The translations under genes were made by a program, and so were the position numbers. Below are positions 1,537 to 29,432 of a DNA stretch of 35,168 nt, one piece after another. The stretch comes from Candidatus Thorarchaeota archaeon (GTDB lineage Archaea > Asgardarchaeota > Thorarchaeia > Thorarchaeales > Thorarchaeaceae): NCBI GenBank assembly GCA_048882325.1, contig JBHLRS010000023.1:1-35168 (forward strand), given 5' to 3'. Each line of letters begins with the position of its first letter. The stretch's first letter is position 1. The notes under the pieces are model-generated. The model was given only the letters and a program-made list of their open reading frames with translations, was not told where the DNA came from and did not search any database.

Positions 1537-1603
1537 ATGATGACGTTGCGATTTGCCAGATACATGGGAGTGAGAAACCCCACCAATAGTTCATTCGTAC
1601 TGA
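1537..1603 (+). ncRNA. Candidate box C/D guide sRNA
   Basis: Intergenic. C box ATGATGA 1537-1543, 13-nt guide, D'-like CAGA 1557-1560, C'-like GTGAGAA, D box CTGA 1600-1603. TTTATT at 1501-1506 upstream. No terminal stem. Confidence 0.5.
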
Positions 1604-1665
1604 ACAAACACCACCGCCCACTATCCTTATAGCACAACGGTAAGAACAAAGCATGGAGAGGAGAG

Positions 1666-3279
1666 TTGAATCCACAGGACGAGTTGGGTTTACAACAAAT
1701 GGCTGTATCAATGCCCCTGTTCTCGGGAACTTTTTACGAGGCATATTCTATTGGAGGTTTTCTATGGGGCCTTCTGTTAGATTTTATTGCGTTGTTCTAT
1801 GGCATCACTTTTGACTTCTTGCAATGGGTTTTCCTCACCTTGGCATGTGGTTTCTTTCTACAGTTGCTCCTGAACGGTCTGAAGATGCGTAGGTTCCGGA
1901 ATCCTGTGACCAATCCAGAATTGTTGGCCTTGTTTGAAGAGGTGAAGAGTGATTTTGGTATAGGAGAAGGAATCCAACTTTGGATCCGTGATGTTGACAG
2001 AGCGATATTTCTATCATCGGTCACTCCACTCTTCAAAGCCATCCTTTTTTCTGGGAGCACTATTGGGGATATCCTCAGAAACCCAGAGAAAGGAAAGATA
2101 GTTCTGGCTCAGGAGGTGCTAAAGATGGAACAATTGAGCCCTCAGAGCAGAATGGCGATTGGATTATTCGCTTTTACCTTCTTTTCGATTTTAGAATCAT
2201 TTTCACTTATTGGATATTCCATTTCGTTCACAATGACATTTGGACCATTGGTTCTTGTCATACTTGTCATTGCACTCCTAGCTATCATTGCAGGTGTTCC
2301 CTATTTCACATCTCGCACCGGTCGTAATATTGAACTAGAGATTGCCAAAGTCTACGACACTCCTTATGCAATAGCTGCCTCAGAGGTACTACATGGCTTC
2401 CAACTACCGGATGAAGTGGTGGATGAGATTAAGCGAGACGAGCGAGAAGGAAAACCAACTAGAGGCGCCAGAACGAGTAAGAATGGTTTGATTGCAGCAG
2501 TGATTGCCATGCCAGTCACTTTTATCATCATGTTCATGTTGGCACCCACTTCGCCCTTGATTGTCATGTTTGCCGTTGTTATGGCAGCCGCTGTTGGGTT
2601 CTTTGTTTTCCTGCTCACTCTCCTGATCTCAGAATTTTCTGTGCTTCGAAAGTCTATGAAAATACGAAGGTCCACAGTCTGGGACTTCCAGATTTCCTTC
2701 TCTAACGATGTACAAAGCATCCTGAATAAATGCCCTGGTTATGATGAGGTCATTATACGAGCTGTGAAATCCTCTTCAAATGATCAAATTGGTCTTGTTG
2801 CCGTCAAACTCACGACGAATATGGAAGAGGAAACACTGTTTGCAATGTTGCCCAGGATGGTACAGGATCTCCACGATGTTGAACTGGCTGGACCTTTCAT
2901 CCTCTCTGAGCTAAGACGAAATGACATAGAGAAGCGTTTCAACAGGCTCAATTACGCTGTTCTCGGGATAACAATCCCCTTTCTAACCATTGGTGTTATT
3001 GCATCAATAGCAAACCAAGAGTTCTATAGTATGTTTGATTCTATCATTCCAATCTTCGTCACCTATATCGTCATGTCGGTTGTCCCGGGTATTGGTCTTT
3101 CAATCTGGAAATGTAATGCAGATATTAAATCTGACACTGAGATTGCTCGAGCATATCCACGACTCAGAGAAGCCCTTCAAACTTTGATTGCGAATCATCA
3201 TACCCTCCCGTTTGGTAAGACATCATACAAGTCTAGATTAGAACGGATTGACAAACAGCTGGGAGTTTTTCAAGTTTGA
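1666..3279 (+). CDS. Polytopic membrane protein with two degenerate M48/HtpX-like repeats (no HExxH); paralog of 4272-5900
   Basis: TTG start after GGAGAGGAG. LLALFEEV..GI..IQLWI..AILFS..IVLAQEVLKM mirrors the M48 layout, and the C-terminus has SD..LREALQTL..RLERI. Confidence 0.7.
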   Translation: MNPQDELGLQQMAVSMPLFSGTFYEAYSIGGFLWGLLLDFIALFYGITFDFLQWVFLTLACGFFLQLLLNGLKMRRFRNPVTNPELLALFEEVKSDFGIGEGIQLWIRDVDRAIFLSSVTPLFKAILFSGSTIGDILRNPEKGKIVLAQEVLKMEQLSPQSRMAIGLFAFTFFSILESFSLIGYSISFTMTFGPLVLVILVIALLAIIAGVPYFTSRTGRNIELEIAKVYDTPYAIAASEVLHGFQLPDEVVDEIKRDEREGKPTRGARTSKNGLIAAVIAMPVTFIIMFMLAPTSPLIVMFAVVMAAAVGFFVFLLTLLISEFSVLRKSMKIRRSTVWDFQISFSNDVQSILNKCPGYDEVIIRAVKSSSNDQIGLVAVKLTTNMEEETLFAMLPRMVQDLHDVELAGPFILSELRRNDIEKRFNRLNYAVLGITIPFLTIGVIASIANQEFYSMFDSIIPIFVTYIVMSVVPGIGLSIWKCNADIKSDTEIARAYPRLREALQTLIANHHTLPFGKTSYKSRLERIDKQLGVFQV

Positions 3280-3302
3280 GATGATAGATGGGACTTGTCT
3301 TG

Positions 3303-3998
3303 TCATGGTTGTACTTGATCTACAGTTGCATACCTCTTTCCATCCAACCACCATGCCGCCAATGTAAGCACCACATACATGAATTCCGCCATCATTGCTG
3401 CAGCGAGTGCATCTGGGTACATAGTGAAGGGAGTGATTACGGTAATTACAACGAGCGCAATAATGAAGACATACATTCCATACTTGCCCACGAGAGTTGA
3501 TCCTGAAGAGGTTGATCTGAGATATATCCAGCAACCAACTAGAAGAACAGCGAGTTCCGCAACAACAGTTACCAAGATGCTGTTCCAAAGTCCTAGTCCA
3601 ATCGACAGGTCAAATCCGGGCAGCAACAGTAAGTCTGGAGTATGGACAATGACGTCCAGCAGGAAGTGAGAGAATACAGCCGCGCTCAGAACTAGAGCAA
3701 CTCTCTGTCGATAAGCGGTATCAGTCGAACTCCATAGAGGAAAGAACCGAACTAAGACATATGTTCCAATAGCCCATACAAAGGCTCCAAGAAGACTGTG
3801 TGTGATTGGATAATCATAGAGATCGAATGGACTGGCCTCAGTAAAACCAGGGATTATTCGAAGGTGCTCAATTCCCAATGGAACAAGGATGAAGAACGCG
3901 ATATCTACTAGTTGGACTGCAATGAACAAAACTCCAAGTGATATCTTTGGTGCAAATTTCTTCAGTATGAAAGCTATACCGTAATGTCCGATGAACAT
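3303..3998 (-). CDS. Membrane-bound metal-dependent hydrolase (YdjM-like)
   Basis: MFIGH start, QLVD, THSLLG and SHFLLDVIVH motifs; several TM helices. Alternative GTG start at 4007. Confidence 0.8.
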   Translation of the reverse strand: MFIGHYGIAFILKKFAPKISLGVLFIAVQLVDIAFFILVPLGIEHLRIIPGFTEASPFDLYDYPITHSLLGAFVWAIGTYVLVRFFPLWSSTDTAYRQRVALVLSAAVFSHFLLDVIVHTPDLLLLPGFDLSIGLGLWNSILVTVVAELAVLLVGCWIYLRSTSSGSTLVGKYGMYVFIIALVVITVITPFTMYPDALAAAMMAEFMYVVLTLAAWWLDGKRYATVDQVQP

Positions 3999-4271
3999 AG
4001 AACTCACACACCAGGGTTGTCTTTGATATGTGCCAGCTAATCATTTGTCATAGCTCAAGAATTTATTAAATGCTACCTCGCAGGCCTTTTTCACTTGACT
4101 TCATGCTTTCATGGTTTTTCATCGCAGTCCACACGATTGTTTTTGTCAAAGTGGGTCCTTTTCTGTACAAGACTGATTCCCATGGGAGAGAGAGCGATTT
4201 AGCAATCAAGACATTCATCAACTCCGCTATGCTTATAGCAAAGAAATGATTGCTAGACTTGGAGAGGGAAG

Positions 4272-5900
4272 TTGAGCCCACAGAGTGAACCTTACATATT
4301 TCGTGAACAAACCGGTGTTCCTCTTTTCTCAGGGACATTCTATCATGATTTCTATATTACAGGTCTCGCCTGGGGAATCGTTTTTCAGTTAATTCAACTT
4401 ATGACAAGGTTTGTCTTTGAGATCTTGCAATGGCTACTAATCACCCTATTCACAGGACTAATGCTGCAGCTATTATACGCGATGTTGAAGAAGAGACGAT
4501 TCTACAACCCGGTGACAAATCAAGACCTGATTGAGATGTTCGAACAAGTCACACAAGACCTTGGAAAGGGACAGAGAACCGAACTCTGGCTGCGTGACAT
4601 TGATAGAGGTGTCTTTTTATCCACTGTTAATCCGTTCTACAAAGCCATCCTCTTCTCTGAGAACACAATCGCGGACATTCTCGAAAAGCGAGAGAAGGGG
4701 AAAGTCATACTCGCAAAAGAGGTTCTCATGATTGAAACACTGCGTCCTCTCAGTCGCACTGCAATAGGATTGCTTGGCTTTACCTTCATATCTTTGGTTG
4801 AGAGTTTGACATTTTTCGAGTCGATGGAGTACATCATGTTCTCGATGGGTCTAATTATTCCGATTATCATTCTCGTCACTTTGCTGCTATTTATTGTCGC
4901 TGTCCCTTTCACAACGAATCGTTCAGAGAAGAAAATCGTTCAGATTTTGGAGGAAATCTATGGGGTGCCACCTGATGCGGCAATGATTGAGGTATTGACA
5001 GGGTTCGAACTTCCAGATGAATCGATTGAGGACGCCAAACGAGAGGGTGAGGCTGAAAGACAAAGGAGAAAGGGTGAGTCATTGAAGAAAGGTCTAGTCG
5101 GTGCACTGACTGCATTCCTCATTAGTTTCATCATCATATACCTACTTTACTCATCCTCCCCAATGTGGGTGTTCTCTTTAGTTATCATACCTCTCGCACT
5201 AGGTATAGGAGCGTTTGCGATAGTCTATGTGACCAGTTTGGTGTGGGATTTCATCAAACCAGGTGGAGCTAGAAACACTCAATGGGACATCCAAGTTCCG
5301 TTTGCCACTGACGTCCAGAACTACCTCCACAAATACCTTGGTTCTAAGGAAGTTGCTGTGCGAGCAGTGAAACCTCCTGCTCATGAGAAATATGGTCTCG
5401 TAGTATTGAAATTAAATGACAACTATGACGAGGATACAATCTTTGCTATGTTGCCTCAAGTGCTTGAAGATATACATGACGCGGAACTGGCGGGTTCATT
5501 TATCCTATCAGAGATTTGGCGTAAGGCCATTGAGCGACGCTACAACCGTATCAGCTACGTAATTGTAGGTGCTGTAATCATTTTTCTTGCAGGAGGTATG
5601 ATCTATGTGTTTACAGGAGGATTTGCAAGGTTCTTTGGCTTATTTGCTCCTATCTTTATCACCTACCTGATTATGGCATTTGTACCTCTGACTATTCTAT
5701 CCCTTTGGAAGAGAAATGCTGAGATACTTTCTGATACGAGAGTAGCAAGAGAATGTCGCCGATTCACAGAAGCACTTCAGAATCTCATCAGTCATCATCA
5801 CACGCTTCCGTATGGGATGACATCCTATCAGTCACGGCTCGAAAGAATTGAGAAGCGACTAGGAACGCATGAAAATGAAGACACTGGTGGCTTAGAATGA
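4272..5900 (+). CDS. Polytopic membrane protein with two degenerate M48/HtpX-like repeats; paralog of 1666-3279
   Basis: Shares blocks PLFSGTFY, NPVTN, LWxRDxDR, KAILFS, FAMLP, ELAG.FILSE and HHTLP.G.TSY.SRLERI with the paralog; TTG start after GGAGAGGGAAG. Confidence 0.7.
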   Translation: MSPQSEPYIFREQTGVPLFSGTFYHDFYITGLAWGIVFQLIQLMTRFVFEILQWLLITLFTGLMLQLLYAMLKKRRFYNPVTNQDLIEMFEQVTQDLGKGQRTELWLRDIDRGVFLSTVNPFYKAILFSENTIADILEKREKGKVILAKEVLMIETLRPLSRTAIGLLGFTFISLVESLTFFESMEYIMFSMGLIIPIIILVTLLLFIVAVPFTTNRSEKKIVQILEEIYGVPPDAAMIEVLTGFELPDESIEDAKREGEAERQRRKGESLKKGLVGALTAFLISFIIIYLLYSSSPMWVFSLVIIPLALGIGAFAIVYVTSLVWDFIKPGGARNTQWDIQVPFATDVQNYLHKYLGSKEVAVRAVKPPAHEKYGLVVLKLNDNYDEDTIFAMLPQVLEDIHDAELAGSFILSEIWRKAIERRYNRISYVIVGAVIIFLAGGMIYVFTGGFARFFGLFAPIFITYLIMAFVPLTILSLWKRNAEILSDTRVARECRRFTEALQNLISHHHTLPYGMTSYQSRLERIEKRLGTHENEDTGGLE

Positions 5901-5942
5901 CTCTCCGAATAGTTTTATCGGAGCACTACATTTCACTAAACA

Positions 5943-6695
5943 ATGACCGAGAATCCTAATCCAAAGACGATAGACTATGACAAAGTTTCTGAGGTTTATG
6001 ACAATGTAAGAGTTGGAGACCCTGAGATGGTCCATCAGCTTTTGCTTGGGGTTGATATTGACATGGACTCCTTTGTCCTCGATGTCGGGTGTGGGACAGG
6101 GAATAACACACTGCTTTTTGCAGAAGCATCACACGCCAAAGTGACTGGTCTGGACATATCATTGGGAATGCTTGAGAAGGCTCGTGAGAAAACCAAACTA
6201 ATTCCTCTAATTCAAGCACCAGCAGACGCACTCCCATATTCCGATGATACCTTCCAGTTTGTATTTATGACAGAGGTCATTCATCATCTTCCTGACCCTG
6301 AAGCTTCAATCAAAGACATCTATAGAGTCTTGGACCAAGGTTGCAAGGTATGTATTGTTACACAGTCACACGATCAGATTGATGGCCGAATGACTTCTAG
6401 GTTCTTTCCTGCCTCAGCTGCTGTGGACAAAGGACGGTATCCGGACATTGACCTGATTGAGGAGCATCTAGTTCAGGTTGGATTTGATAGTGTGAACCCA
6501 ATAGAATACCAGTTCAGACCCACGAAAATAGGCGAGGATTATCTACACACTGTAGAGAATCGTGGTTACTCGATGTTGCATAAAATTAGTCGTGAAGATT
6601 ATGAAAGAGGAGTTCAAGACTTGAAAAAGGCCTTTGACAGTGGTGAGGAACTGACCTACTCTGCAGGCTATACCTTTGTCTGGGCAACGAAGTGA
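5943..6695 (+). CDS. Class I SAM-dependent methyltransferase (UbiE-like)
   Basis: VLDVGCGTG, GLDIS..ML, LPYSDDTF and IHHLPDP motifs. Confidence 0.92.
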   Translation: MTENPNPKTIDYDKVSEVYDNVRVGDPEMVHQLLLGVDIDMDSFVLDVGCGTGNNTLLFAEASHAKVTGLDISLGMLEKAREKTKLIPLIQAPADALPYSDDTFQFVFMTEVIHHLPDPEASIKDIYRVLDQGCKVCIVTQSHDQIDGRMTSRFFPASAAVDKGRYPDIDLIEEHLVQVGFDSVNPIEYQFRPTKIGEDYLHTVENRGYSMLHKISREDYERGVQDLKKAFDSGEELTYSAGYTFVWATK

Positions 6696-6698
6696 AAC

Positions 6699-7046
6699 CT
6701 ACTTCACAACAATATGCAGTGTGCATTTACTCTCCAAGGTTCCCCTGAAAACCTTGCTGACCGCCAGAGTTGTTTTTCCTGTGCCTACAGTTTGGAAAAA
6801 CCAAAGTCCCTTCTCTGCATCTCCCCCTGTCCAATCATGATACTTCATCTTCTCTGGATGTATGTACTCAGTTTCAGTACGAAGATACTTCAGAATCGAT
6901 TCATCACCTATCTCGAATTCCATGTTCTCCCCAACGGAACCATGCCTGAAGAATCGATAGGACACAAGCTCATCCTTCCCTAGAGTCATGACATCTCCAT
7001 CACTCTGACACTCAATCCTCTTGACCTCTTTCTCATCAGGTTCCAT
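6699..7046 (-). CDS. Small beta-rich protein, possibly a divergent chagasin/I42 protease-inhibitor fold
   Basis: AGGTGAT SD. HGSVG..F, TGGD.E...WFF...GTGKTTL and a C-terminal strand resemble the I42 pattern. Confidence 0.45.
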   Translation of the reverse strand: MEPDEKEVKRIECQSDGDVMTLGKDELVSYRFFRHGSVGENMEFEIGDESILKYLRTETEYIHPEKMKYHDWTGGDAEKGLWFFQTVGTGKTTLAVSKVFRGTLESKCTLHIVVK

Positions 7047-7054
7047 ATTATCAC

Positions 7055-7813: not shown

Positions 7814-7864
7814 ATCAATCTCACAGCTTGTTCTACGGAGTAATGAAGGTATTCATCCAAGAAG

Positions 7865-8596: not shown

Positions 8597-8700
8597 GACT
8601 TCAAGACATCATACATTCACACACTTGTATCCATCGCAAGCGGCTTTGTCAGTCATCTCAACTCTTTTCAATGATGCATCAGGAGTAGGTGTGACAGAAT

Positions 8701-9852: not shown

Positions 9853-9856
9853 TGGT

Positions 9857-10156: not shown

Positions 10157-10177
10157 GCTGCTAAAATCTCTGAAAGT

Positions 10178-12564: not shown

Positions 12565-12711
12565 GAGTATCTATAGTTACAAGGTGGAATAAAAGCCCAA
12601 CAGATAACCGAAACTAATTCTAAAGTCTTTTCTTACAACTGCAGGTCAAGCAATCCTTTTATTCGTAGTTCTCTAATCGTACCTGTTTGATGAATTCTCT
12701 ATATCCATGAG

Positions 12712-16150: not shown

Positions 16151-16243
16151 GACAAATCGAGGAGGTTCTTGAAATTAGTATTATGTTTTGGTTGTCGTTG
16201 TTTGATAGACAATGCTAAAACGAAAGACCTTGAAAGAGAATTA

Positions 16244-16310
16244 GCGGCAGTGATGAACCTCCAATGTGAGATTATGAACATATGATCGACCTAAGGGGTA
16301 TCTGAGCCGC
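16244..16310 (+). ncRNA. Candidate box C/D guide sRNA
   Basis: Intergenic, 67 nt. Perfect terminal stem GCGGC/GCCGC, C box GTGATGA 16250-16256, D box CTGA 16302-16305, degenerate internal D'/C' (GTGA or ATGA; ATGAACA or ATGATCG). Confidence 0.75.
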
Positions 16311-17706: not shown

Positions 17707-17712
17707 TCTTTC

Positions 17713-20613: not shown

Positions 20614-20622
20614 GGTGATAAA

Positions 20623-23541
20623 ATGGCCAAGAAGAAAACGGAAAAAGCGATCCTAAAGGGAAATCCACTCTGGTCTATTGGTTATGCTATCACCTCCATG
20701 AAGAACTACAAGGTACGAAACGTAGGTATTGCTCTAATTCTGGCTATTAGTGTAGCAATCCCAACGACAATCTTTGCATGGACAAGTACCGGTTCACGAC
20801 TGGCTGTAGAGACATACTTCGATGAGAACGCTTACCAGTTCAGTATTCAAAACGATCCGGCATCGCTAGATTACTCGCACCTCTTTGATGCTCAGAATCT
20901 TGTGATGAGCAGTCCATATGCTGAATATGCACACATCACACCAAGTACGGTAGGAATCTTCAGAATGGATGGGACCACCCCCGAATGGGAGGAATACTTC
21001 ACCTTTGGTCAAAACTATGCACAAGGCGTCAAGGACTGCAGGGTCATCATAGTTGATAACGAAATTCTAAATGTTTGGTCAAATGAACTTGATTTCAGAG
21101 GGAACACTACACTGAGTCCTGGAGAGGTGCTGGTATCTGAGAGATTTATTGAGCTCACCGAGGAAATGATGCAAACAACTCTTGGAGTATCTATTGATCT
21201 TGATGTCGGGTCTGAAATCAGTCTGGATGTACTTAGAACCTACTACTCACCAGCTGAGGGCCGCCCATTTGACCCATTGCTTCTTAATCGACAAATCGTG
21301 CGGAATCTCACCATTGCAGGTGTTTATGATGTTATTCGGTCATCTGTTGTGGTGCAATCATATCCGTCGCTCTTCAGACCTAACTATGATCCGCTAGGGT
21401 TCTCTACAAGCGTTTTGGGAATAGTAGATTCAGTCCTGATGCTTCCTGAGGAACTTGGCCCTGTATCTGTTGAAATGATAACAAACACCGGATTCTTCTC
21501 ACCTGTTGAGTTTGTACGAGGGTCTGTGGATGGTCTTGTCAAAGCTGGAGTGCTACGGGCTGCTCAGAACCTCTTGAATTTGAAAACTCAGATTGAAGAG
21601 AGTGATGCGATCCTGAATGTCATTGGCCTTGACAACATAGACAGCCTTCAGACTCACATAACAACTTACATTCAAAGCCAAGTATTGATCATCCTTGCAT
21701 TTCCAATTATGATCATGAGCCTGATGCTCACCATCTTCACTTCGGAGACCTCGGTTTCTCAACGAAAGGGTGAGATTAGCGCACTACGTGCCAAAGGAGC
21801 ATCCTTCAACCAGATATTCGCCGCATTCATCTGGGAATCACTGTTCCTCTCCGTTCTTGGTCTCATTGCTGGACTATTGATTACCGTTTTGTCCGCGCCT
21901 TTGATGGGCTCTTCAACTGGGCTGTTGTCCTTTGACCAAGTCAGATATACTGAGTTCGTCACCAAGATGACCATACCCGGACAAGCACTTGCACTATCTG
22001 CAACAATAGCACTCTTCTTACCCGCAGCTTATCTCTTGCATGTTGCTCGTAGGATTGATGTTGCTGAGATAGGGCAACCAACAACCAGAATGACTTATGA
22101 GATTCCAGAGGAGACCAACATCTGGTTCTATGTGATAACACTTGGTGGGACTTTGGTAGTTCTTCTCATTGTACCAGTACTCTTCAATCCCGCTGGCCAA
22201 ACTGCGTTCATTGAGATACTGTTGTCAACTGGAATACTGTTTATCTCATCATATCTTGGATCCAGAGCGATGCGACTGGTGACTGCTAACGCATCTGAGA
22301 ACGTCGGCCGTCTGTTGGGCGAGAAAAAACTCTACATGACTCAGAGTCTACGGAGGAGAAAGGGACAGTTCATCCCCCTCTTAGTAATCCTAACATTGAC
22401 ACTCACCACAACAACAATGATGCTAATCCAGACAGCTAGCTTTGAGGACACACTTGAGAATGAAGCACTCTATGCACTTGGCTGCGATATCCGACTAGAG
22501 GTCCCTGAACAGCCCTTTGCTTGGACTGACACATTGGAAGGATTCGGGGGAGTCGTCAGTGCGACTCCAGTTGTTGAATCTCTGTCATATGTGGGCACAA
22601 CAGCCTTCTATCTCGAAGGGATTGATGCTGAATCGTACAGTACAATAGGGAATTTCAAGGCGTCAAGCTTTGTCAGTGGTACGCCCGAGGAGGTCCTAGC
22701 GGCCCTTGAGGATACCAACAATGGGATCATCCTAAGTCGGGTTTATTCAGAACGTTGGAATTTGACAACTGGCGACAGTGTTGACATACGCGTCAGTGGT
22801 GTGACAGAAACAAGTTTCGAGATTGTTGGCATTATGAAGAGTGCACCTGGTTTTGGAATGGCTTCGAGTAGAGATCTTGATGGTATCCCATTTGGTGCCT
22901 ACTTCGAATTCCAACCTGGGCGAGGAGGATTTGCCTTAGTCAATTATGACTTCTTAGCGTCCGTAGATGGTGTGACCACTACTGAAGTATTCCTAGTTGG
23001 TACAACCTCCCTTGAGGATGCATCTGATCTGATTGCATTCGCCAGCGATATTCCATACGCTGTGGTCTACACCACAGATTCCATCGAGTTTGGTTCCGAC
23101 ACGGTGACTGGTCTCTTTCTTGCTGGAATTGAGGGACTGACAATGATCGCTTTCTTCATGTGTGCAGCTATGGGTATCGCATCAATCGCACTATTCCTTG
23201 GGTCAGCAGTGATGGAGCGCGAGCCTGAGTATGCTCTGTTTCGAGCCATTGGCGGGACAAAGAAACAGGTCGTTTCTCTAGTGTTCGGAGAGTTTGCAGG
23301 AAGCGTGCTTGCTGCTGTATTGATAAGTCTCGGTCTTGGGGTGCTGTTTGGTTATACACTGACTCTCTTGACATTTGGAATCTCATCTGTATGGCCGATT
23401 CTTCCGAAGATACTGACATATCCGTTGATAGTCATGGTCTTCACTGTTGCAATTGAATGTGTTACAATGGTGGCTGCATGTTACTTCCCAGCTAGAAGAG
23501 CTGGAGGTACTAACCCAGCTGATGTATTGAGAAATATGTGA
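20623..23541 (+). CDS. Large FtsX/MacB-like ABC permease (paralog of 17713-20613)
   Basis: QRKGEISALRAKGAS, ERE.EYALFRAIGG, GVKDCRVI shared with the paralog, same VLRNM C-terminus; GAGGTGA SD. Confidence 0.9.
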   Translation: MAKKKTEKAILKGNPLWSIGYAITSMKNYKVRNVGIALILAISVAIPTTIFAWTSTGSRLAVETYFDENAYQFSIQNDPASLDYSHLFDAQNLVMSSPYAEYAHITPSTVGIFRMDGTTPEWEEYFTFGQNYAQGVKDCRVIIVDNEILNVWSNELDFRGNTTLSPGEVLVSERFIELTEEMMQTTLGVSIDLDVGSEISLDVLRTYYSPAEGRPFDPLLLNRQIVRNLTIAGVYDVIRSSVVVQSYPSLFRPNYDPLGFSTSVLGIVDSVLMLPEELGPVSVEMITNTGFFSPVEFVRGSVDGLVKAGVLRAAQNLLNLKTQIEESDAILNVIGLDNIDSLQTHITTYIQSQVLIILAFPIMIMSLMLTIFTSETSVSQRKGEISALRAKGASFNQIFAAFIWESLFLSVLGLIAGLLITVLSAPLMGSSTGLLSFDQVRYTEFVTKMTIPGQALALSATIALFLPAAYLLHVARRIDVAEIGQPTTRMTYEIPEETNIWFYVITLGGTLVVLLIVPVLFNPAGQTAFIEILLSTGILFISSYLGSRAMRLVTANASENVGRLLGEKKLYMTQSLRRRKGQFIPLLVILTLTLTTTTMMLIQTASFEDTLENEALYALGCDIRLEVPEQPFAWTDTLEGFGGVVSATPVVESLSYVGTTAFYLEGIDAESYSTIGNFKASSFVSGTPEEVLAALEDTNNGIILSRVYSERWNLTTGDSVDIRVSGVTETSFEIVGIMKSAPGFGMASSRDLDGIPFGAYFEFQPGRGGFALVNYDFLASVDGVTTTEVFLVGTTSLEDASDLIAFASDIPYAVVYTTDSIEFGSDTVTGLFLAGIEGLTMIAFFMCAAMGIASIALFLGSAVMEREPEYALFRAIGGTKKQVVSLVFGEFAGSVLAAVLISLGLGVLFGYTLTLLTFGISSVWPILPKILTYPLIVMVFTVAIECVTMVAACYFPARRAGGTNPADVLRNM

Positions 23542-23551
23542 GGTAGTTGAA

Positions 23552-24583
23552 ATGGATACAACTTTAGAATTCGAAGATGAACTTGACCTGTACAGTGACT
23601 TGCCTGATGATGTCGTCGTCAGTGTAAATGACTGTTACAAGATCTACAAAGCCCAGGAGCTAGAGGTCGTTGCGTTAAGTGGCGTGTCTCTCCAGATTCT
23701 CGAAGGCAAGATCATGGCCGTTGTTGGGCCTTCAGGCTCAGGAAAGACGACCCTAATCAACGTGATTGGTGGAATCACCAAGGCAACAGTTGGTAAGGTC
23801 TATTGGGCCAACTTGAGGACTGACATCACAAAACTGAGTGAACGAGTCTTAACAGAAGCCAGACGTAATTTCATTGGTTTCCACTTCCAGCTGAACAACT
23901 TGCTACCTCATCTCAATGCATGGCAGAATGTGGAACTTGCAGCACGAATTGCTGGTGTACCTCGACAGGTGCGTAAAGACAGAGTCGACCGTCTCATCAA
24001 ACTAGTTGGTCTTGAGGAACGCAAGCGTAACAAAGCAACCACACTTAGTGGCGGAGAAAAGTCACGAGTGGCGATAGCTAGTGCTCTCGTGAACCTCATC
24101 GACACAGAAGGGAAGGGATTGGTTCTTTGTGATGAACCCACCGGGGATCTAGACCCTGAGACTGGTGAACGGATTCTTGATTTGTTCCAAGAGCTGAACG
24201 AAACAATAGGCACATCGTTCTTCATTGTTACACACAGTCAACAAGTGGCATCCAAAGCGGATGTGACAGTAGAGCTCCGGGATGGAGTCATTTCTGGGTT
24301 CCATCAGGCTGGGATAGATCTAGACATGCTTGATACGACTCGTATTGTACGGTTGGATGACAAACACAGACTTCCCATGCCCACTGACCTCCTCAGCCTC
24401 GCTGGTGACCCACGAGAGTTCCGACTCAGCTATGTGGATAACAAGTTCATACTTGTCCCACAGACTGGCGAAGTTGTTGATCAGATGCGTGAGAAGAAGG
24501 CTAGAATCTGCAGAGTTTGTGGTGCAGAGATTCCGGGTGGTAAGTTCATCTGTGCCAACTGTGGAAGTCAGGTCACAGTATGA
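23552..24583 (+). CDS. ABC ATP-binding protein with C-terminal AbrB-like segment and zinc ribbon
   Basis: GPSGSGKT, LSGGE, VLCDEPTGDLD, THS; then VRLDDKHRLPMP..KFILVP and CRVCG..CANCG. Confidence 0.88.
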   Translation: MDTTLEFEDELDLYSDLPDDVVVSVNDCYKIYKAQELEVVALSGVSLQILEGKIMAVVGPSGSGKTTLINVIGGITKATVGKVYWANLRTDITKLSERVLTEARRNFIGFHFQLNNLLPHLNAWQNVELAARIAGVPRQVRKDRVDRLIKLVGLEERKRNKATTLSGGEKSRVAIASALVNLIDTEGKGLVLCDEPTGDLDPETGERILDLFQELNETIGTSFFIVTHSQQVASKADVTVELRDGVISGFHQAGIDLDMLDTTRIVRLDDKHRLPMPTDLLSLAGDPREFRLSYVDNKFILVPQTGEVVDQMREKKARICRVCGAEIPGGKFICANCGSQVTV

Positions 24584-24594
24584 ATGCAAAAGAG

Positions 24595-25083
24595 TTAGAG
24601 ACTCGCTTCTGGCGAGTCGTTTCTCTTGAATAGAGAAACTAGCTGCTCTATTGTGGTCCAGTGTTCCATGTACTTGCGAATCATCCGACGTTCTCTCTTC
24701 AGGTTTTTGATGCCGCTTAGCTCGAGTTCTTTCTCGATAAACTTGTAGATCTCTTTCCCTTTTTTGTCGAAATCGGTGAGGACGAGAACCTGCCCCTTTG
24801 GTCCTGCTTGCGCCTGAATCTTCTCAATGACTTGTTGTCTTGATAATCTCGTCTGAGTCCTGATTATGGTTGCTTTTAGACCAAGGTTTCGAAGAACGGA
24901 AACATCTCGTTTACCTTCTACAACTACTAGCAGATTGGGATACTTTGAATCAAGTGTCTGTATCGTTTCAATGAGTTTCTTTTCATTCTCAGAGAGTCGT
25001 CCAACACGCCTCTGTTCTACAGATCTCCAAAGGCCTGCTTTTCCTCTCAATGAATCATTATTGTCTTCAGTCAAAAGACACAC
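24595..25083 (-). CDS. Small Toprim-domain protein (RNase M5/primase-like)
   Basis: VVVEGKRD..L..LG and VLVLTDFDKKG (E and DxD). Start codon uncertain. Confidence 0.88.
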   Translation of the reverse strand: MCLLTEDNNDSLRGKAGLWRSVEQRRVGRLSENEKKLIETIQTLDSKYPNLLVVVEGKRDVSVLRNLGLKATIIRTQTRLSRQQVIEKIQAQAGPKGQVLVLTDFDKKGKEIYKFIEKELELSGIKNLKRERRMIRKYMEHWTTIEQLVSLFKRNDSPEASL

Positions 25084-25093
25084 CGTTTCTTGA

Positions 25094-26137
25094 TTATGGT
25101 GTTATTGCGACCTTCATGGTTTCTCCTTTGCCCATCTTCTCCAAAGCATCATTGATCTTTTCAAGTGGCAGCTCATGAGAAATCAGTAGGTCTGGATTGA
25201 CATCTCCAGCAATGATGAGCTTTAGCGCTTGCTCCACATGTCTAGGTTTAAGATGGAATACTCCCTTTATTGTCAATTGGCCATAGTGGAATCGTCCTGT
25301 GTCAACCTCGAACTTTGTCCCTGAAGCCGCCCCTCCAAACAGTACAGTTGTTCCTGCATCACGGGTCATTTCAACGGCCTGTTCCCAGGTCTGAGGTATC
25401 CCCACAGCCTCGATGACCACATCGGCACCATAGCCGTAGGTTTCATCTCTGACAAGTCCTATTGGGTCCTCCTTTGACGGATCGATGACAATATCAGCTC
25501 CTGCCTTCTTTGCAATATTTCTTCGAAGATCAGCAAGATCTGATGCAATCACAGTAGACGCACCGTTCTTCTTTGCTAGCATGATTAACATCTGTCCAAT
25601 CGGTCCTGCTCCAATGACAGCCACCGTGTCACCAAGTTTGATGTTAGACTCCTCAATACCATGAACAACACATGCCAGAGGTTCTGTGAGCGCAGCATCT
25701 CTATAGGAGAGCGACTCAGGAATCTGATGAGTGTTCATCCTCACCACGGCCTCAGGGACTCGAATGTATTCTGCGAACGCTCCATTGACAAGACTATCCT
25801 TCAGCTGGGCACAGAGATTTGGCATGTTTCTCTTGCAAAAGAAGCACTCACTACAGGGAGCAGAGTTTGTTGCAACAACTCTCATCCCGACTTCAAAGCC
25901 CTCGACACCATCTCCTACCTCCTCAATGGTCCCTGCATATTCATGCCCAAAGAGCGCGGGGGTATGTTTGATGAGGACTGGATGCCCTCTCTTGTAGGTC
26001 TTGACATCTGTCCCACAGGTCAGAGCTGTGCCAATCTTGATCAGGAGTTCTCCCGGTCCAATCTCTGGCACATTGGTCTCCTCATATCGGACATCACCGA
26101 TACCATAGTACATTGCAGCTTTCATCTTGCGAGTCAT
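25094..26137 (-). CDS. Zinc-dependent medium-chain (sorbitol/threonine-type) dehydrogenase
   Basis: CGTD, GHE, CSECFFC..NLC, EPLAC, GAGPIG. ATG at 26137 (MTRKMKAA) preferred. Confidence 0.93.
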   Translation of the reverse strand: MTRKMKAAMYYGIGDVRYEETNVPEIGPGELLIKIGTALTCGTDVKTYKRGHPVLIKHTPALFGHEYAGTIEEVGDGVEGFEVGMRVVATNSAPCSECFFCKRNMPNLCAQLKDSLVNGAFAEYIRVPEAVVRMNTHQIPESLSYRDAALTEPLACVVHGIEESNIKLGDTVAVIGAGPIGQMLIMLAKKNGASTVIASDLADLRRNIAKKAGADIVIDPSKEDPIGLVRDETYGYGADVVIEAVGIPQTWEQAVEMTRDAGTTVLFGGAASGTKFEVDTGRFHYGQLTIKGVFHLKPRHVEQALKLIIAGDVNPDLLISHELPLEKINDALEKMGKGETMKVAITP

Positions 26138-26170
26138 AAGCCAATTCCCCGAGCACCTTCGCTTGGTCCG

Positions 26171-26216
26171 TTTAAATCCCTTCCTGACTGACAAACCGCA
26201 ATGCTTAACCTTTATT
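26171..26216. promoter_or_regulatory. Divergent TATA boxes for the dehydrogenase (-) and the OsmC-like gene (+)
   Basis: TTTAAA at 26171-26176 with a purine-rich BRE on the - strand, 34 nt from ATG 26137; CTTTATT at about 26210-26216, about 30 nt before ATG 26246. Confidence 0.5.
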
Positions 26217-26245
26217 CACCTGAGCCACAGCGTGGATTGATAGTC

Positions 26246-26698
26246 ATGCGTATCAAGTCTAAGTTTCCTGAGCGTATGGAATACCATGCGGAGAGTGTGT
26301 GGGACGGCAAGACAGGTGGTACGATTACAACCAGTGAGGGCTGTCAGATAAAGTATGACACTCCAAAGACCTATTCAGGACGCGGCGAAGGAATCTGCCC
26401 AGATGAGATATTCGTGTCTGCAGTCCTCGGCTGTCTGAACAACACTTTCCTTGATTTTCAACGCCGATTCGAAATGGACCTTGTTTCATTCAAGCTGAAT
26501 GGGAAAGCAACAACCATCTTTGATGGTGAAGGGTATATAATCACTAGATTTGAGGTGTCAGGTGAGGTCGTTGTAGGTGAGGATGAGCTCGAAACTGGTC
26601 AGCGTTGTGTTGAGCTCATGCAGCAGTATTGTCATCTAACTAGAACTATCAAAGACTCCCTTCCATTCGAGTATGACATATCTGTCCGAGAAGGATAG
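26246..26698 (+). CDS. OsmC/Ohr family protein
   Basis: W.G..GG, P....G.G...PDE.F.SA..GC and a later YC; ATG at 26246. Confidence 0.88.
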   Translation: MRIKSKFPERMEYHAESVWDGKTGGTITTSEGCQIKYDTPKTYSGRGEGICPDEIFVSAVLGCLNNTFLDFQRRFEMDLVSFKLNGKATTIFDGEGYIITRFEVSGEVVVGEDELETGQRCVELMQQYCHLTRTIKDSLPFEYDISVREG

Positions 26699-26699
26699 C

Positions 26700-27191
26700 T
26701 TATCGTTCTAGTTCCTTCATAAGCTGAGTTATCCTTTCCATATAGGCTTCAATGTTTGTCCATTGTCCACCTTGAAAGAAGACACTGCTACAGTATCTAC
26801 AGAGCCAGAACTCCGAATAATGATTGAACGTCTGTTCAGCGACTAGCCTTCTGATGGTTTCTTTCTCCTCGTCAGTGATATGCGTTAGAACGCCATTACA
26901 TTTAGTGCAACGCGATTTTGAGGGGTCTATCTTAGGATTGATTTCAAATTTTGAGAAAACGATTGCCACCTCCTCGTCCACAGATCCCCTAACTAACATG
27001 AACGCTGCACCTGCATTCTCTGCTCTTCTTGCAAGAATAGCATCTGATGTGAGCAAAACCCTATTCTGGTCAAGCGCGATTTGTAGAAGCTGGTCATCAT
27101 GTATTTTGGTTGAGTAAAACGTGTCATATCCGGCAAGTCGAAGCCACGTGGCAAGTTTTCCTAGCATAGCATCAACAATGAACGTTCTCAT
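26700..27191 (-). CDS. Mut7-C RNase (PIN-like, DUF82) domain protein with zinc ribbon
   Basis: FIVDAMLGKLATWLRLAGYDT, RVLLTSD, SRCTKCNG.L, FW.C..C..VF. Confidence 0.92.
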   Translation of the reverse strand: MRTFIVDAMLGKLATWLRLAGYDTFYSTKIHDDQLLQIALDQNRVLLTSDAILARRAENAGAAFMLVRGSVDEEVAIVFSKFEINPKIDPSKSRCTKCNGVLTHITDEEKETIRRLVAEQTFNHYSEFWLCRYCSSVFFQGGQWTNIEAYMERITQLMKELER

Positions 27192-28093
27192 TGATTTTCA
27201 CCGAAAATTAAACGCGAGGCATTCTTCCACATCACTTTCTCAATCTCATCTTTGTGCACTTGCTTGTATCCCTGATCAATCATCTCAGAAGGGATCTGTA
27301 AACTGGTAAAGAACTCCACCCATTTTCTGAGTGGCATCGTGAATTCAAACAGTGGGAAATCACTCCCAAAGATCATTCGATTCGGAAACACCCTCAGAGT
27401 CTTTGCATCTCCAATCATCTGATACACTTTCATTGGTACTGCTGATGCAAATACCTGCCACCCTGATACATCTACCGACACATTCGGGTTTTTAGCTGCT
27501 ATCATAAGAGTTTCATCATGCCAAGGAAAACCAACATGGGCCAGTATTATTTTCAGATCAGGAAAGTCAGCTGCAACCCTGTCAACATAGACCGGTCTTG
27601 CATACTTCACATGTTTGTGCCTGGGAGTGAATCCCTGATGAATGAGGATCGGAATGTTCAGGTCTATGCAAAGCTTGTAATAGGGATCAAACTCGCTTTT
27701 GTCCGGGTAGAACCCATTTGGAGGGTACATCTTCCACCCCCTACACCCTTTCTTAGTTACTGCTCGCTCTAGTTCCTTCAGCCCTGCTTCTCCTCTTCTT
27801 GGATCAAGACCGACGAATGTCACTATGTCAGTGTCACCTTCCACCTCATTCACATGCCAGTCTGTCTTCTCTGTCATCGTGAGGGGCATCTTTTGATGAT
27901 ACGCACTATCAATTGGTAATATGACTGCCCTATCTACTCTACTTGTTTCCATGGCATTACGAAGAGTGTCAATCGTTGAGTCAAGTACTGGATCGACACC
28001 ATCACGTTCAGCGGCTGCAAGACGTGATGTAAGATCCCTCTCACTGATAATATCCTTCGACCATGTATGGGTGTGCGCGTCAATGACCTTCAA
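27188..28093 (-). CDS. Amidohydrolase family 2 protein
   Basis: IDAHTH, GWKMYP, ILIHQG, ILAHVGFPW, IFGSDFP, NASRL. Confidence 0.92.
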   Translation of the reverse strand: MKVIDAHTHTWSKDIISERDLTSRLAAAERDGVDPVLDSTIDTLRNAMETSRVDRAVILPIDSAYHQKMPLTMTEKTDWHVNEVEGDTDIVTFVGLDPRRGEAGLKELERAVTKKGCRGWKMYPPNGFYPDKSEFDPYYKLCIDLNIPILIHQGFTPRHKHVKYARPVYVDRVAADFPDLKIILAHVGFPWHDETLMIAAKNPNVSVDVSGWQVFASAVPMKVYQMIGDAKTLRVFPNRMIFGSDFPLFEFTMPLRKWVEFFTSLQIPSEMIDQGYKQVHKDEIEKVMWKNASRLIFGENQ

Positions 28094-28938
28094 GTGAACT
28101 CACTCCGTATCTTCTCCAACTCATCGATAACCTCAACGGGAACGGTGATACTTCCAAGTTCTGTATAGTGAATCGCACCGTGATAGTCACTTCCTCCTGT
28201 TTGTATGACTTCCAAACCTTTGATGACTTCACTCACCTCGTCAGGTGTACGATGTGTTCCCATGAACCTATAATCATAATCCACCTCAACGCCCAAAAGA
28301 CCTACGGTCATGAGGTCTTCAATTAACGTCCGAAGATCATGCGTTTTTATGGTGAGAGGATGAGCAAGGACCGGTATTGCTCGGATCGTTTTGAGGAGCC
28401 TGACCGCATCAAATGTTTGCATTCGTACCTTCTTCACAAAAGCTGGTCTGTCGAATGCAATGTACTTGTCAAATGCTTCCCTGGTTGACTTCACAACACC
28501 TTTCTTAACCAACAACAGCGCAACGTGAGGTCTACCCGGGCTCGAAACGCCTTCCAGCTCTTTATACAGCTCCTCAATCGACACATCAATCCCTAAATCA
28601 TTTAATTTCTGAATCATCTTGGGAAGCCGATCGTGTCTCCCTTTCCTCAAGTGTTCCAGTCTGTCATTCAGTTGCTTTGAGTCATGCGGGACGAAATATC
28701 CCAGTATGTGAGCCTCTGCGCTGTTGAATTCAGTGCTTATCTCTACTCCAGGTACCCGCCTAAGGTCATCCGACGCAGTCGCATCCATAAACTCTCGTAT
28801 CCCATCAAGTGAATCATGGTCTGTGAGGCCAATGCCTCCTAGCTGCATCTCGTCAGCCGCTCTTACCAATTCAGTGGGTGTGTCGCTTCCATCTGAAGCA
28901 GCTGAATGAGTGTGAAGGTCAGCACGGGCTCTCACCAT
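28090..28938 (-). CDS. PHP-domain phosphoesterase (TrpH/YciV-like)
   Basis: DLHTHS.ASDG, LTDHD, GVEIS, HILGY, GRPH, VLAHP, TGGSDYHG. Confidence 0.93.
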   Translation of the reverse strand: MVRARADLHTHSAASDGSDTPTELVRAADEMQLGGIGLTDHDSLDGIREFMDATASDDLRRVPGVEISTEFNSAEAHILGYFVPHDSKQLNDRLEHLRKGRHDRLPKMIQKLNDLGIDVSIEELYKELEGVSSPGRPHVALLLVKKGVVKSTREAFDKYIAFDRPAFVKKVRMQTFDAVRLLKTIRAIPVLAHPLTIKTHDLRTLIEDLMTVGLLGVEVDYDYRFMGTHRTPDEVSEVIKGLEVIQTGGSDYHGAIHYTELGSITVPVEVIDELEKIRSEFT

Positions 28939-29335
28939 GTGCAGCCTCCTGCCTCAACGTTTCTACAAGCTTTCGAACCTTGTGGCAAACCTTACGAATC
29001 TCTTCTCGACTCACGGTTTCTCCTGAGGGACAATCCTTGTCAATTATACATTTCCGCTTTCGCGCATCATAGATTATTGGATAATATTTACACCCTTCCG
29101 GTCGGTCCTCATAGATACGACAGAGTTTTGTTCCAGGATCATAGAAGAAACATTTCCCCTCAATGTTTCTGAGTTCGCAGAATCCTGCCATTACTCGGAC
29201 AGCGAAGTCCTTCCTGTCATAACCCAAGGACTCGATTCTCTCTACATCCTCTCGAGTCAAGGTCATTTCAGTTTCAGTGCAACACAGACGGACTTCATCA
29301 CAAGATCCATCATGGTTGCAGAGGAAGGGTGTCAA
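28919..29335 (-). CDS. YkgJ (UPF0153/CxxCxxCC) cysteine-cluster protein
   Basis: C...SC....CC.ETEM.LT.ED..RI, G.CFF, CRIYEDRPEGC..YP, DCP; AGGAG upstream of the TTG start. Confidence 0.88.
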   Translation of the reverse strand: MTPFLCNHDGSCDEVRLCCTETEMTLTREDVERIESLGYDRKDFAVRVMAGFCELRNIEGKCFFYDPGTKLCRIYEDRPEGCKYYPIIYDARKRKCIIDKDCPSGETVSREEIRKVCHKVRKLVETLRQEAAHGESPC

Positions 29336-29356
29336 GGTGTTGTATACTCCTAGCGC

Positions 29357-29432
29357 ATCGGTCAGATTGCGGTTTAGTGGTTCATCACGCTGATGAGGTC
29401 GTTCACCATCCCTACTTCATCATCATCCCGAC
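29357..29432 (-). ncRNA. Candidate box C/D guide sRNA
   Basis: Minus strand reads GTCGGg-ATGATGA ... GTGATGA-accactaaaccgcaat-CTGA-CCGAT: exact C, C' and D boxes plus a 5-bp terminal stem. GAAAG-ca-TATTTAG (BRE/TATA-like) lies about 25 nt upstream. Confidence 0.8.

What the first reader, a model, noticed from the sequence alone, without database searches (positions are those of the whole stretch)
1537..29432. High density of sno-like guide RNAs in the small intergenic fraction
Seen: intergenic DNA totals only about 2-3 kb, yet three spacers carry RTGATGA followed about 45-60 nt later by CTGA. A rough base-frequency estimate gives well under one such pair by chance. Inference: this probably Asgard lineage may encode a large, unannotated C/D guide repertoire, including guides co-transcribed with protein genes. 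That bears on the origin of eukaryotic snoRNAs.
Basis: inference. Interest (0 to 1): 0.7.

Follow-up and report, generated by a model that had tools for sequence, protein, structure and literature searches.

The report
Two Thorarchaeota C/D guide RNAs

Summary
Shuffled window spacers give 0.11 such spacers, against 3 seen.

Two are genuine box C/D sRNA genes (16244-16310 +, 29433-29356 -). In relatives, conservation starts and stops at the terminal stems, which show compensatory changes. Each has a BRE/TATA-like box about 25-30 nt upstream. Each family occurs once per genome and only in this Thorarchaeota family.

The 29.4 kb RNA is a double guide for 16S rRNA. Its D guide pairs with 10 Watson-Crick bp and its D' guide with 12 bp, at two invariant sites equivalent to E. 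coli 952 and 1381/1382. The 16.2 kb RNA has no convincing target. The 1537 site has no stem and no homologue, so it is chance.

Fibrillarin, Nop5 and L7Ae genes are present. The "large repertoire" is not supported. Genome-wide the motif pair occurs 16 times in spacers against 16.7 +/- 4.6 in shuffles. In 0.81 Mb of a sister species, only one conserved spacer island looks like a C/D RNA.

These are new members of a known kind. The scan had already noted both RNAs on this window, and other C/D RNAs elsewhere in this genome.

The parts
29356..29433 (-). Box C/D sRNA 'B' (78 nt from 5' stem to 3' stem), a double guide for 16S rRNA
   Evidence: In distant relatives only this stretch matches by blastn (query positions 271-342 equal window 29430-29359). 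A2 aligns 30 distinct homologues. Model R1 finds one copy per genome in 15 of 26 family genomes.
29455..29470 (-). BRE/TATA-like box GAAAGCATATTTAGCC, about 25-30 nt upstream of the 5' stem of sRNA B
   Evidence: It is kept at the same distance in nearly all homologues, with an A/T-rich box even in other genera. Promoter function is inferred.
29428..29433 (-). 5' strand of the terminal stem (TGTCGG)
   Evidence: It pairs with 29356-29361. The four inner pairs are 83-100% kept, and U-A changes to G-C on both sides in 2 sequences.
29420..29426 (-). Box C, ATGATGA
   Evidence: GATGA is invariant in 30 sequences. The following TGA varies, which fixes the register.
29407..29419 (-). D' spacer (13 nt); the guide GAAGTAGGGATG pairs with 16S CGUCCCUGCUUC
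   Evidence: 12 bp including 2 G-U. The duplex is -21.5 kcal/mol against -13.6 +/- 1.3 for 30 shuffled guides. The target is almost invariant in the 14 family 16S genes where it was found. The U-to-C guide variant turns a G-U pair into G-C.
29403..29406 (-). Box D', GTGA (GCGA or GAGA in relatives)
   Evidence: Alignment A2.
29387..29402 (-). Internal 3-bp stem (ACG / CGT) with a 10-nt loop between boxes D' and C'
   Evidence: The outer pair reads A-U in 11, G-C in 10, G-U in 7 and is unpaired in 2 of 30 sequences.
29382..29388 (-). Box C', GTGATGA (GCGATGA or GCTATGA in relatives)
   Evidence: Alignment A2.
29366..29381 (-). D spacer (16 nt); the guide TAAACCGCAA (29376-29367) pairs with 16S UUGCGGUUUA
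   Evidence: 10 consecutive Watson-Crick bp at guide positions 2-11. AAACCGCA is invariant in 30 sequences. The target is invariant in 14 family 16S genes.
29362..29365 (-). Box D, CTGA
   Evidence: Invariant.
29356..29361 (-). 3' strand of the terminal stem (CCGATG). The RBS-like AGGAG (29351-29347) and the TTG start of the next ORF (29335) follow.
16244..16310 (+). Box C/D sRNA 'A' (67 nt), an orphan guide on the strand opposite both neighbouring genes
   Evidence: In distant relatives only query positions 245-311 (window 16244-16310) match. A1 aligns 29 distinct homologues. Model R2 finds one copy per genome in 12 of 26 family genomes.
16214..16221 (+). TATA-like box GCTAAAAC, about 25-30 nt upstream of sRNA A
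   Evidence: An A/T-rich box (CTAAAAC, CTATTAT or CTAATAC) sits at a fixed distance in 28 homologues. Function is inferred.
16244..16248 (+). 5' strand of the terminal stem GCGGC, pairing with 16306-16310 (GCCGC)
   Evidence: 96.6% of cells are paired, and C-G changes to U-A on both sides in 3 sequences.
16250..16256 (+). Box C, GTGATGA
   Evidence: TGATGA is invariant.
16257..16269 (+). Variable D' spacer ACCTCCAAT (8-14 nt in relatives) plus box D' GTGA
   Evidence: At 9 nt in this genome it is probably too short to act as a guide.
16282..16288 (+). Degenerate box C', ATGATCG (GATGAAC or GATGATC in other genera)
16289..16301 (+). D guide ACCTAAGGGGTAT, strongly conserved, target not found
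   Evidence: Nearly invariant in genus g1. No match of 9 or more Watson-Crick bp in rRNA, tRNA or the genome.
16302..16305 (+). Box D, CTGA
   Evidence: Invariant.
1537..1603 (+). Chance pair AATGATGA ... CTGA; not an sRNA gene
   Evidence: No terminal stem. No internal boxes at a plausible spacing. No homologue of the spacer in 40 relatives.

Best explanation
The window carries two independent, promoter-equipped box C/D sRNA genes of a Thorarchaeota archaeon plus one chance motif pair. Each RNA should fold so that its 5' and 3' ends pair and boxes C and D form a K-turn. L7Ae would bind that K-turn, then Nop5 and fibrillarin (inferred from the established archaeal C/D RNP). sRNA B (29433-29356, minus strand) is a double guide for 16S rRNA. 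By the N+5 rule its D guide should direct 2'-O-methylation of the C equivalent to E. coli position 952, on the 5' strand of helix 30. Its D' guide should direct methylation of the C equivalent to E. coli 1381/1382, at the start of the 3' strand of helix 28. The two sites are about 430 nt apart in sequence but adjacent in the head-neck fold, so the RNA may also help this region fold. sRNA A (16244-16310, plus strand) has the same terminal architecture and a strongly conserved D-side guide, but no identifiable target, so it is an orphan. The genome's C/D repertoire is probably small, of the order of 5-20, as expected for a mesophile, not large. Shown here: the motifs, the conservation boundaries, stem covariation, guide-target complementarity, presence of the core genes and the family distribution. 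Inferred: transcription, RNP assembly, methylation and any chaperone role.
For: In more distant genomes blastn matches only the sRNA, at 81-93% identity, while the flanks are lost. Terminal stems are 96.6% and 87% paired with compensatory changes, and sRNA B has an internal pair reading A-U 11 / G-C 10 / G-U 7. Boxes C and D are invariant. A BRE/TATA-like box sits at a fixed distance upstream of each. The D guide of sRNA B forms 10 consecutive Watson-Crick bp that include position N+5, which meets the criterion of at least 9 used by Dennis et al. 2015. Its D' duplex is -21.5 kcal/mol against -13.6 +/- 1.3 for shuffles. Both 16S targets are almost invariant across the family genes where they were found. 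Both lie in or next to sites targeted by published sRNAs, Nanoarchaeum equitans sR17 at U1371 and sR15 at G930. The guide residues that pair are the invariant ones. Fibrillarin and Nop5 are adjacent on contig C46, and there are two L7Ae-family genes. On repertoire size: the motif count equals that of shuffles; the strict scan gives 3 spacer hits genome-wide; rRNA-guide half-mers number 17 against 9.6 +/- 3.4 in decoys; one C/D-like island was found in 0.81 Mb of genome G001, a sample that recovered about a quarter of the tRNA loci. The mesophile Methanococcus maripaludis has 7 C/D sRNAs against 52-128 in hyperthermophiles.
Against: There is no expression data; no RNA run was listed. The genome assembly lacks rRNA, so targets were read on relatives' rRNA. 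Spacings are not the canonical 12 nt: sRNA B has 13 and 16, sRNA A has 9 and 13. The D' duplex of sRNA B needs two G-U pairs in this genome. sRNA A has no target, its internal boxes are degenerate, and its two spacers can pair with each other. sRNA B is missing from two species of the same genus. The repertoire estimate rests on low-sensitivity scans and one partial genome comparison. Earlier notes of this scan report at least three more C/D sRNAs that my strict scans did not flag.
Confidence: 0.8

Rival explanations
1. One reading: the window samples a large, dense, unannotated C/D guide repertoire (many tens to hundreds) in this Asgard genome.
For: There are two real sRNA genes in 35 kb. Earlier notes of the scan list at least three more elsewhere in the genome (not tested here). 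RTGATGA heptamers are slightly enriched in spacers, 259 against 227 +/- 11. My scans need near-canonical boxes and would miss degenerate ones.
Against: The motif pair count in all spacers equals that of shuffles, 16 against 16.7. With a terminal stem there are only 3 spacer hits genome-wide. A relaxed scan gives 27 of 360 hits in spacers, no more than the spacers' share of the sequence. rRNA-complementary guides are not, or only weakly, above decoys. Only one C/D-like conserved island was found in 0.81 Mb of a sister species. Mesophilic archaea are known to have few.
Confidence: 0.12
2. sRNA A is not a methylation guide. It is a K-turn RNA that folds into a closed rod, with its D' spacer paired to its D spacer and an internal hairpin over box C'. 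It would then have another role, such as L7Ae binding or titration, a chaperone function, or regulation.
For: RNAalifold predicts CCUCC (columns 19-23) pairing with GGGGU (columns 59-63), 93% of cells paired, and GAUURU pairing with AUGAUC, 98% paired. No target was found. The D' spacer is only 8-14 nt and variable, and box C' is degenerate.
Against: The changes in the extra helices are almost all one-sided pyrimidine swaps opposite G, which do not prove pairing. The internal hairpin is not kept in other genera. About a third of published archaeal C/D sRNAs also lack an rRNA target. The 13-nt spacing from C' to D is close to canonical.
Confidence: 0.2
3. sRNA B is mainly a cis-acting leader element: a K-turn in the 5' UTR of the CxxCxxCC/PHP operon through which L7Ae controls the mRNA. 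It would not be a trans-acting guide.
For: It lies 21 nt upstream of the ORF start, with the RBS-like AGGAG in between. The order sRNA, CxxCxxCC gene, PHP gene is conserved in six genomes of several genera. There is room for only one promoter. A paper title reports translational regulation by L7Ae in archaea (PMC5539422, listed; not read).
Against: The most conserved residues are the two guide stretches, and these match invariant 16S sites. A leader element does not explain that. Two species of the same genus keep the operon without the RNA. The two roles are not exclusive.
Confidence: 0.08
4. All three sites are chance motifs or ordinary promoter/UTR sequence.
For: The 1537 site behaves this way. 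No Rfam family matches, even at E <= 10.
Against: Window shuffles give P(>=2) = 0.007. Conservation is confined to the RNA, stems covary, and models R1 and R2 find single copies at E of 1e-7 to 1e-24 across genera.
Confidence: 0.02

Closest known systems
Archaeal box C/D sRNAs that bridge distant 16S strands: Nanoarchaeum equitans sR17 (U1370/1371 + A915, helix 28) and sR15 (G930 + G1217/1218, helix 30); Pyrobaculum calidifontis sR56 (Dennis et al. 2015, PMC4644070)
   Same: A double guide whose two targets are far apart in 16S sequence but close in the head-neck fold. The D' duplex of sRNA B (alignment columns 1365-1376) covers the sR17 site U1371. Its D duplex (columns 932-941) lies 5 nt from the sR15 site G930.
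   Different: The predicted modified residues (C935 and C1368/1369 in that paper's alignment numbering) are not among the paper's listed targets. sRNA B combines one strand of helix 30 with one strand of helix 28, not two strands of one helix. There is no sequence homology, and sRNA B is restricted to one Thorarchaeota family.
Canonical compact archaeal C/D sRNA (50-60 nt, 12-nt spacers, short K-loop linker between D' and C'; my own knowledge of the Pyrococcus and Sulfolobus type)
   Same: Boxes C, D', C' and D in order. A terminal stem with the 3-nt bulge geometry of a K-turn. N+5 guide logic. L7Ae, Nop5 and fibrillarin genes present.
   Different: These RNAs are longer, at 67 and 78 nt. Spacers are 13 and 16 nt (sRNA B) and 9 and 13 nt (sRNA A). 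sRNA B has a base-paired stem-loop between D' and C', a feature more usual in eukaryotic snoRNAs.
Small C/D repertoires of mesophilic archaea (Methanococcus maripaludis: 7 genes; Dennis et al. 2015)
   Same: The genome-wide tests here point to few C/D sRNAs in a sediment-dwelling, presumably mesophilic lineage.
   Different: The number in Thorarchaeota has not been measured by RNA sequencing.
Orphan C/D sRNAs (163 of 489 published archaeal sRNAs have no significant rRNA match)
   Same: sRNA A has complete terminal C/D architecture and a conserved guide, but no rRNA target.
   Different: Its guide is unusually conserved within the genus, about 20 nt nearly invariant, and it can pair with the RNA's own D' spacer.

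Membership tests
Archaeal box C/D sRNA | Box C (RUGAUGA) near the 5' end and box D (CUGA) near the 3' end | tested here: met
   sRNA A has GTGATGA and CTGA; sRNA B has ATGATGA and CTGA. The box cores are invariant in 29 and 30 homologues. The 1537 site also has both boxes, but nothing else.
Archaeal box C/D sRNA | A terminal stem directly flanking the boxes, giving K-turn geometry (stem, 3-nt bulge, tandem G-A pairs) | tested here: met
   sRNA A reads GCGGC-A-GU|GAUGA ... CUGA-GCCGC; sRNA B reads UGUCGG-G-AU|GAUGA ... CUGA-CCGAUG. Cells are 96.6% and 87% paired, with changes on both sides. Not met at 1537.
Archaeal box C/D sRNA | Internal boxes D' and C' | tested here: inconclusive
   sRNA B has GUGA and GUGAUGA, which are good but vary to GCGA and GCUAUGA. 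sRNA A has GUGA and a degenerate AUGAUCG or GAUGAAC.
Archaeal box C/D sRNA | Spacers of about 12 nt between C and D' and between C' and D | tested here: not met
   sRNA B has 13 and 16 nt. sRNA A has 9 nt (8-14 in relatives) and 13 nt. One spacer of each RNA is close to canonical.
Archaeal box C/D sRNA | Guide complementarity to rRNA or tRNA: at least 9 consecutive Watson-Crick bp that include position N+5 (criterion of Dennis et al. 2015) | tested here: met
   The D guide of sRNA B has 10 Watson-Crick bp at positions 2-11. Its D' guide has 12 bp with 2 G-U here, and by my reading of the alignment 10 consecutive Watson-Crick bp in the GCAGGG variants. Not met for sRNA A.
Archaeal box C/D sRNA | Genes for the RNP core proteins L7Ae, Nop5 and fibrillarin in the genome | tested here: met
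   PF01269 scores 289 bits and PF01798 scores 228 bits, adjacent on contig C46. PF01248 scores 94 and 73 bits on contigs C25 and C58.
Archaeal box C/D sRNA | A stable small transcript, L7Ae binding, and 2'-O-methylation at the predicted site | not testable with these tools
   No RNA run is listed for this organism.
Any curated Rfam family | A covariance-model match | tested here: not met
   No hit at gathering score, and none at either locus at E <= 10. C/D sRNA families are lineage-specific, so this does not argue against the class.

The most novel reading that the evidence does not exclude
Thorarchaeota C/D sRNAs may be an architectural intermediate between compact archaeal sRNAs and eukaryotic snoRNAs: longer (67-78 nt), with relaxed spacer lengths and a base-paired stem between D' and C'. 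In this reading sRNA B acts chiefly as a long-range folding chaperone. It would hold the helix-30 and helix-28 strands of the 16S head-neck junction together. Its D' arm pairs across a site where some relatives carry a 16S intron, so that arm could bind fully only to spliced rRNA.
Probability: 0.2. Interest if true: 0.55.

Novelty: new member of a known kind. Interest (0 to 1): 0.3.

Why it matters
It shows that Asgard archaea of the Thorarchaeota family use ordinary archaeal C/D guide RNAs. It gives two concrete, testable 16S methylation predictions and one conserved orphan guide. It also corrects the idea that these genomes hide a large snoRNA-like repertoire: the evidence points to a small set, as in other mesophilic archaea. 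For the origin of eukaryotic snoRNAs the useful leads are modest. They are the longer, looser architecture with an internal stem, and an sRNA gene sitting in front of a protein operon.

Tried and rejected
- RNA evidence: no RNA holder was listed for this DNA.
- Rfam: nothing at gathering score or at E <= 10.
- The assembly has no SSU or LSU rRNA, so rRNA was taken from relatives.
- Targets tried for sRNA A and rejected:
  - 16S helix-11 region CCCACUUAGGU. It needs a target bulge, and the commoner guide variant ACCUUAGGGG creates a mismatch against an invariant target.
  - The leader upstream of the 23S gene (ACUCCUUGG and AUCAUGUUCACA). The energy is no better than for shuffled guides, and there is a G-U pair at N+5.
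  - 23S CUCCU(G/U)AGGGAAAUCGG. It gives 8-9 bp with G-U pairs, and the register shifts by 2 nt between genera.
  - tRNAs.
  - A search for the guide's complement in 61 family genomes returned only the sRNA gene itself plus scattered one-mismatch hits.
  - Own-genome hits all fall inside ORFs.
- Repertoire scans that gave no clear excess: D-guide 10-mers with an upstream TGATGA (35 real against 30 and 41 decoys); half-mers over the whole genome (124 against 108-166); 11-mers followed by NTGA in spacers (68 against 43-69).
- A 20-kb blastn against the family was swamped by coding matches.
- sRNA B was sought in G001, G012, G031, G032 and G036 and not found, apart from one 25-nt match at E 0.03.
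- Literature searches found no paper on Asgard C/D sRNAs in the held library.

Full report
**Observation.** The window (G000 contig C23, 45.7% G+C) has about 2.5-2.6 kb of spacer DNA by a crude ORF mask. RTGATGA followed 45-60 nt later by CTGA occurs in three spacers: + 1537-1603, + 16250-16305 and - 29426-29362. Dinucleotide-preserving shuffles of the window's spacers give on average 0.11 spacers with such a pair. P(>=3) was 0 of 3000, P(>=2) was 0.007 and P(>=1) was 0.11.

**Lineage and machinery.** Close relatives of the window's primase large subunit lie on records titled Candidatus Thorarchaeota, so "Asgard" is right. Fibrillarin and Nop5 are adjacent on contig C46 (289 and 228 bits), and there are two L7Ae-family genes. 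The assembly has no rRNA genes. I used rRNA from the same genus (genome G014) and from other genera of the family.

**The 1537 site.** It has no terminal stem and no plausible internal boxes. The spacer has no homologue in 40 relatives; only the neighbouring ORF matched, in one genome. One chance pair is expected with probability about 0.1. I read it as chance.

**sRNA A (16244-16310, + strand).**
- Sequence layout: GCGGC-A-GTGATGA-[9 nt]-GTGA-[12 nt]-ATGATCG-[13 nt]-CTGA-GCCGC.
- In distant genomes of the genus and in other genera, blastn matches only these 67 nt, at 77-91% identity, while the flanking genes are not matched.
- In 29 distinct homologues, conservation begins and ends at the stem.
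- The stem is 96.6% paired, and C-G changes to U-A on both sides in three sequences.
- An A/T-rich box lies at a fixed distance of about 25-30 nt upstream.
- The gene lies opposite to both neighbours (ogg and mobB) and next to ogg in most genomes.
- Model R2 finds one copy in 12 of 26 family genomes. In 124 other genomes of the phylum it finds only two marginal hits.
- Divergent homologues fix the internal boxes as GUGA (D') and AUGAUC or GAUGAAC (C'), with a 13-15 nt D guide.
- No target meets the published criterion of at least 9 consecutive Watson-Crick bp in rRNA, tRNA or the genome. The candidates I rejected are listed under Tried and rejected.
- RNAalifold suggests a closed form in which the D' spacer (CCUCC) pairs with GGGGU of the D guide. 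The supporting changes are one-sided.
- I file it as an orphan C/D sRNA. About a third of published archaeal sRNAs are also orphans.

**sRNA B (29433-29356, - strand).**
- Sequence layout: TGTCGG-G-ATGATGA-[13]-GTGA-ACG-[loop]-C-GTGATGA-[16]-CTGA-CCGATG.
- In other genera only this stretch matches, at 81-93% identity.
- In 30 homologues boxes C and D are invariant, and the register of box C is fixed by variation just downstream of it.
- The terminal stem shows a U-A to G-C double change. A 3-bp stem between D' and C' has an outer pair that reads A-U in 11, G-C in 10, G-U in 7 and is unpaired in 2 sequences.
- A BRE/TATA-like GAAAGCATATTTAGCC sits about 25-30 nt upstream in nearly all homologues.
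- The RNA ends 21 nt before the TTG start of a CxxCxxCC-domain gene, with an AGGAG in between.
- The order sRNA, CxxCxxCC gene, PHP gene holds in six genomes of several genera. A shared transcript is therefore plausible but not shown.
- Model R1 finds one copy in 15 of 26 family genomes and nothing credible elsewhere in the phylum.
- Two species of the same genus have the operon but not the RNA.

**Targets of sRNA B.**
- The D guide TAAACCGCAA forms 10 consecutive Watson-Crick bp, at positions 2-11 upstream of box D, with 16S UUGCGGUUUA. Position N+5 falls on the C at alignment column 935 of Dennis et al., which corresponds to E. coli 952.
- The D' guide GAAGTAGGGATG forms 12 bp, two of them G-U, with CGUCCCUGCUUC. 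The duplex is -21.5 kcal/mol against -13.6 +/- 1.3 for shuffled guides. Position N+5 falls on column 1369, or 1368 if box D' is read one base later, which corresponds to E. coli 1382 or 1381.
- Both target sequences are invariant or almost so across the 14 family 16S genes in which each was found. The guide residues that pair are the invariant ones, and a U-to-C guide variant converts a G-U pair to G-C.
- Dennis et al. 2015 describe sRNAs of N. equitans and P. calidifontis that pair with opposite strands of helices 28 and 30 and propose a folding role. The sR17 site U1371 lies inside the D' duplex of sRNA B, and the sR15 site G930 lies 5 nt from its D site.
- The exact residues predicted here are not in that paper's lists.
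- To my knowledge, from memory and not checked, they are not yeast 18S methylation sites either.

**Repertoire size.**
- Over all spacers of the genome (395 kb) the motif pair occurs 16 times against 16.7 +/- 4.6 in shuffles. With a terminal stem of at least 4 bp the count is 2 against 0.85.
- A strict whole-genome scan gives 46 hits, of which 3 are in spacers and 2 of those are sRNA A and B. Relaxing box C does not enrich spacers.
- Guide-like complementarity to rRNA is at most weakly above decoys, 17 against 9.6 +/- 3.4 in spacers. Other variants show no excess.
- As a check that does not depend on motifs, I compared 0.81 Mb (about 25%) of a divergent species of the same genus, G001, with the whole genome. 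The short, well-conserved spacer islands were about seven tRNA loci, sRNA A, a CU-rich sRNA family, repeated 23S-end fragments and a few unclassified pieces. None of these except sRNA A has C/D features.
- This points to a few conserved C/D sRNAs per genome, not many tens. A mesophilic methanogen has 7, against 52-128 in hyperthermophiles.
- Earlier notes of this scan list three further C/D sRNAs elsewhere in this genome. I did not verify them. They show that my strict scans miss some members, but they fit a small set.

**Verdict.** Two real Thorarchaeota box C/D sRNA genes and one chance motif are present. The core RNP genes are present. These are new members of a known kind. Minor architectural departures are longer spacers, an internal stem and a position in front of an operon. 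There is also one conserved orphan guide. Both loci had already been noted separately by this scan.

Noticed in passing
Relatives' 16S genes: L086 (G029) about 1512-1535, L090 (G030) about 1445-1470, L126 (G067) about 1511-1535; also L082 (G014) and L084 (G035): Several family 16S genes carry large insertions: G014 is 2293 nt, G035 is 2411 nt and G080 is 2278 nt. In G029, G030 and G067 an insertion begins right after ...ACGUCCCUGC, inside the D' target of sRNA B. In those species the guide could therefore pair fully only with spliced rRNA.
   Followed up: partly
G000 contig C33: 2504-2641, 4141-4202, 5418-5517 (outside the window): Three copies of a 60-140 nt segment are 81-91% identical to the 3' end and downstream flank of the 23S gene of G001, although no 23S gene is assembled in this genome.
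   Followed up: no
window 12588-12620: A 28-33 nt island between two divergently oriented genes is 86-94% identical in G013, G001, G015 and G035, while the rest of the spacer is not conserved. It may be a shared promoter or operator.
   Followed up: no
window 16257-16261 with 16297-16301, and 16270-16275 with 16282-16287: In sRNA A the D' spacer (CCUCC) can pair with GGGGU of the D guide, and GAUUAU can pair with AUGAUC of box C'. These pairings are kept in 93-98% of alignment cells, but mostly through one-sided changes.
   Followed up: partly
G001 contig C1 about 21100-21300 (L063); G012 contig C44 about 175900-176090 (L064): These two species of the same genus keep the CxxCxxCC/PHP operon but have no sRNA B upstream of it, and none was found elsewhere in their assemblies.
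   Followed up: yes
G000 contig C13: 5-75 and contig C31: 2056-2123 (outside the window): These are paralogous conserved spacer islands that read CUCCCCCCUCCUACC on the minus strand and are shared with G001.
   Followed up: no
window 16244-16310 and 29356-29433: The two sRNA genes stay linked 13-20 kb apart on one contig in G014, G020, G003, G017, G034 and G035, so the whole block is syntenic across genera.
   Followed up: partly
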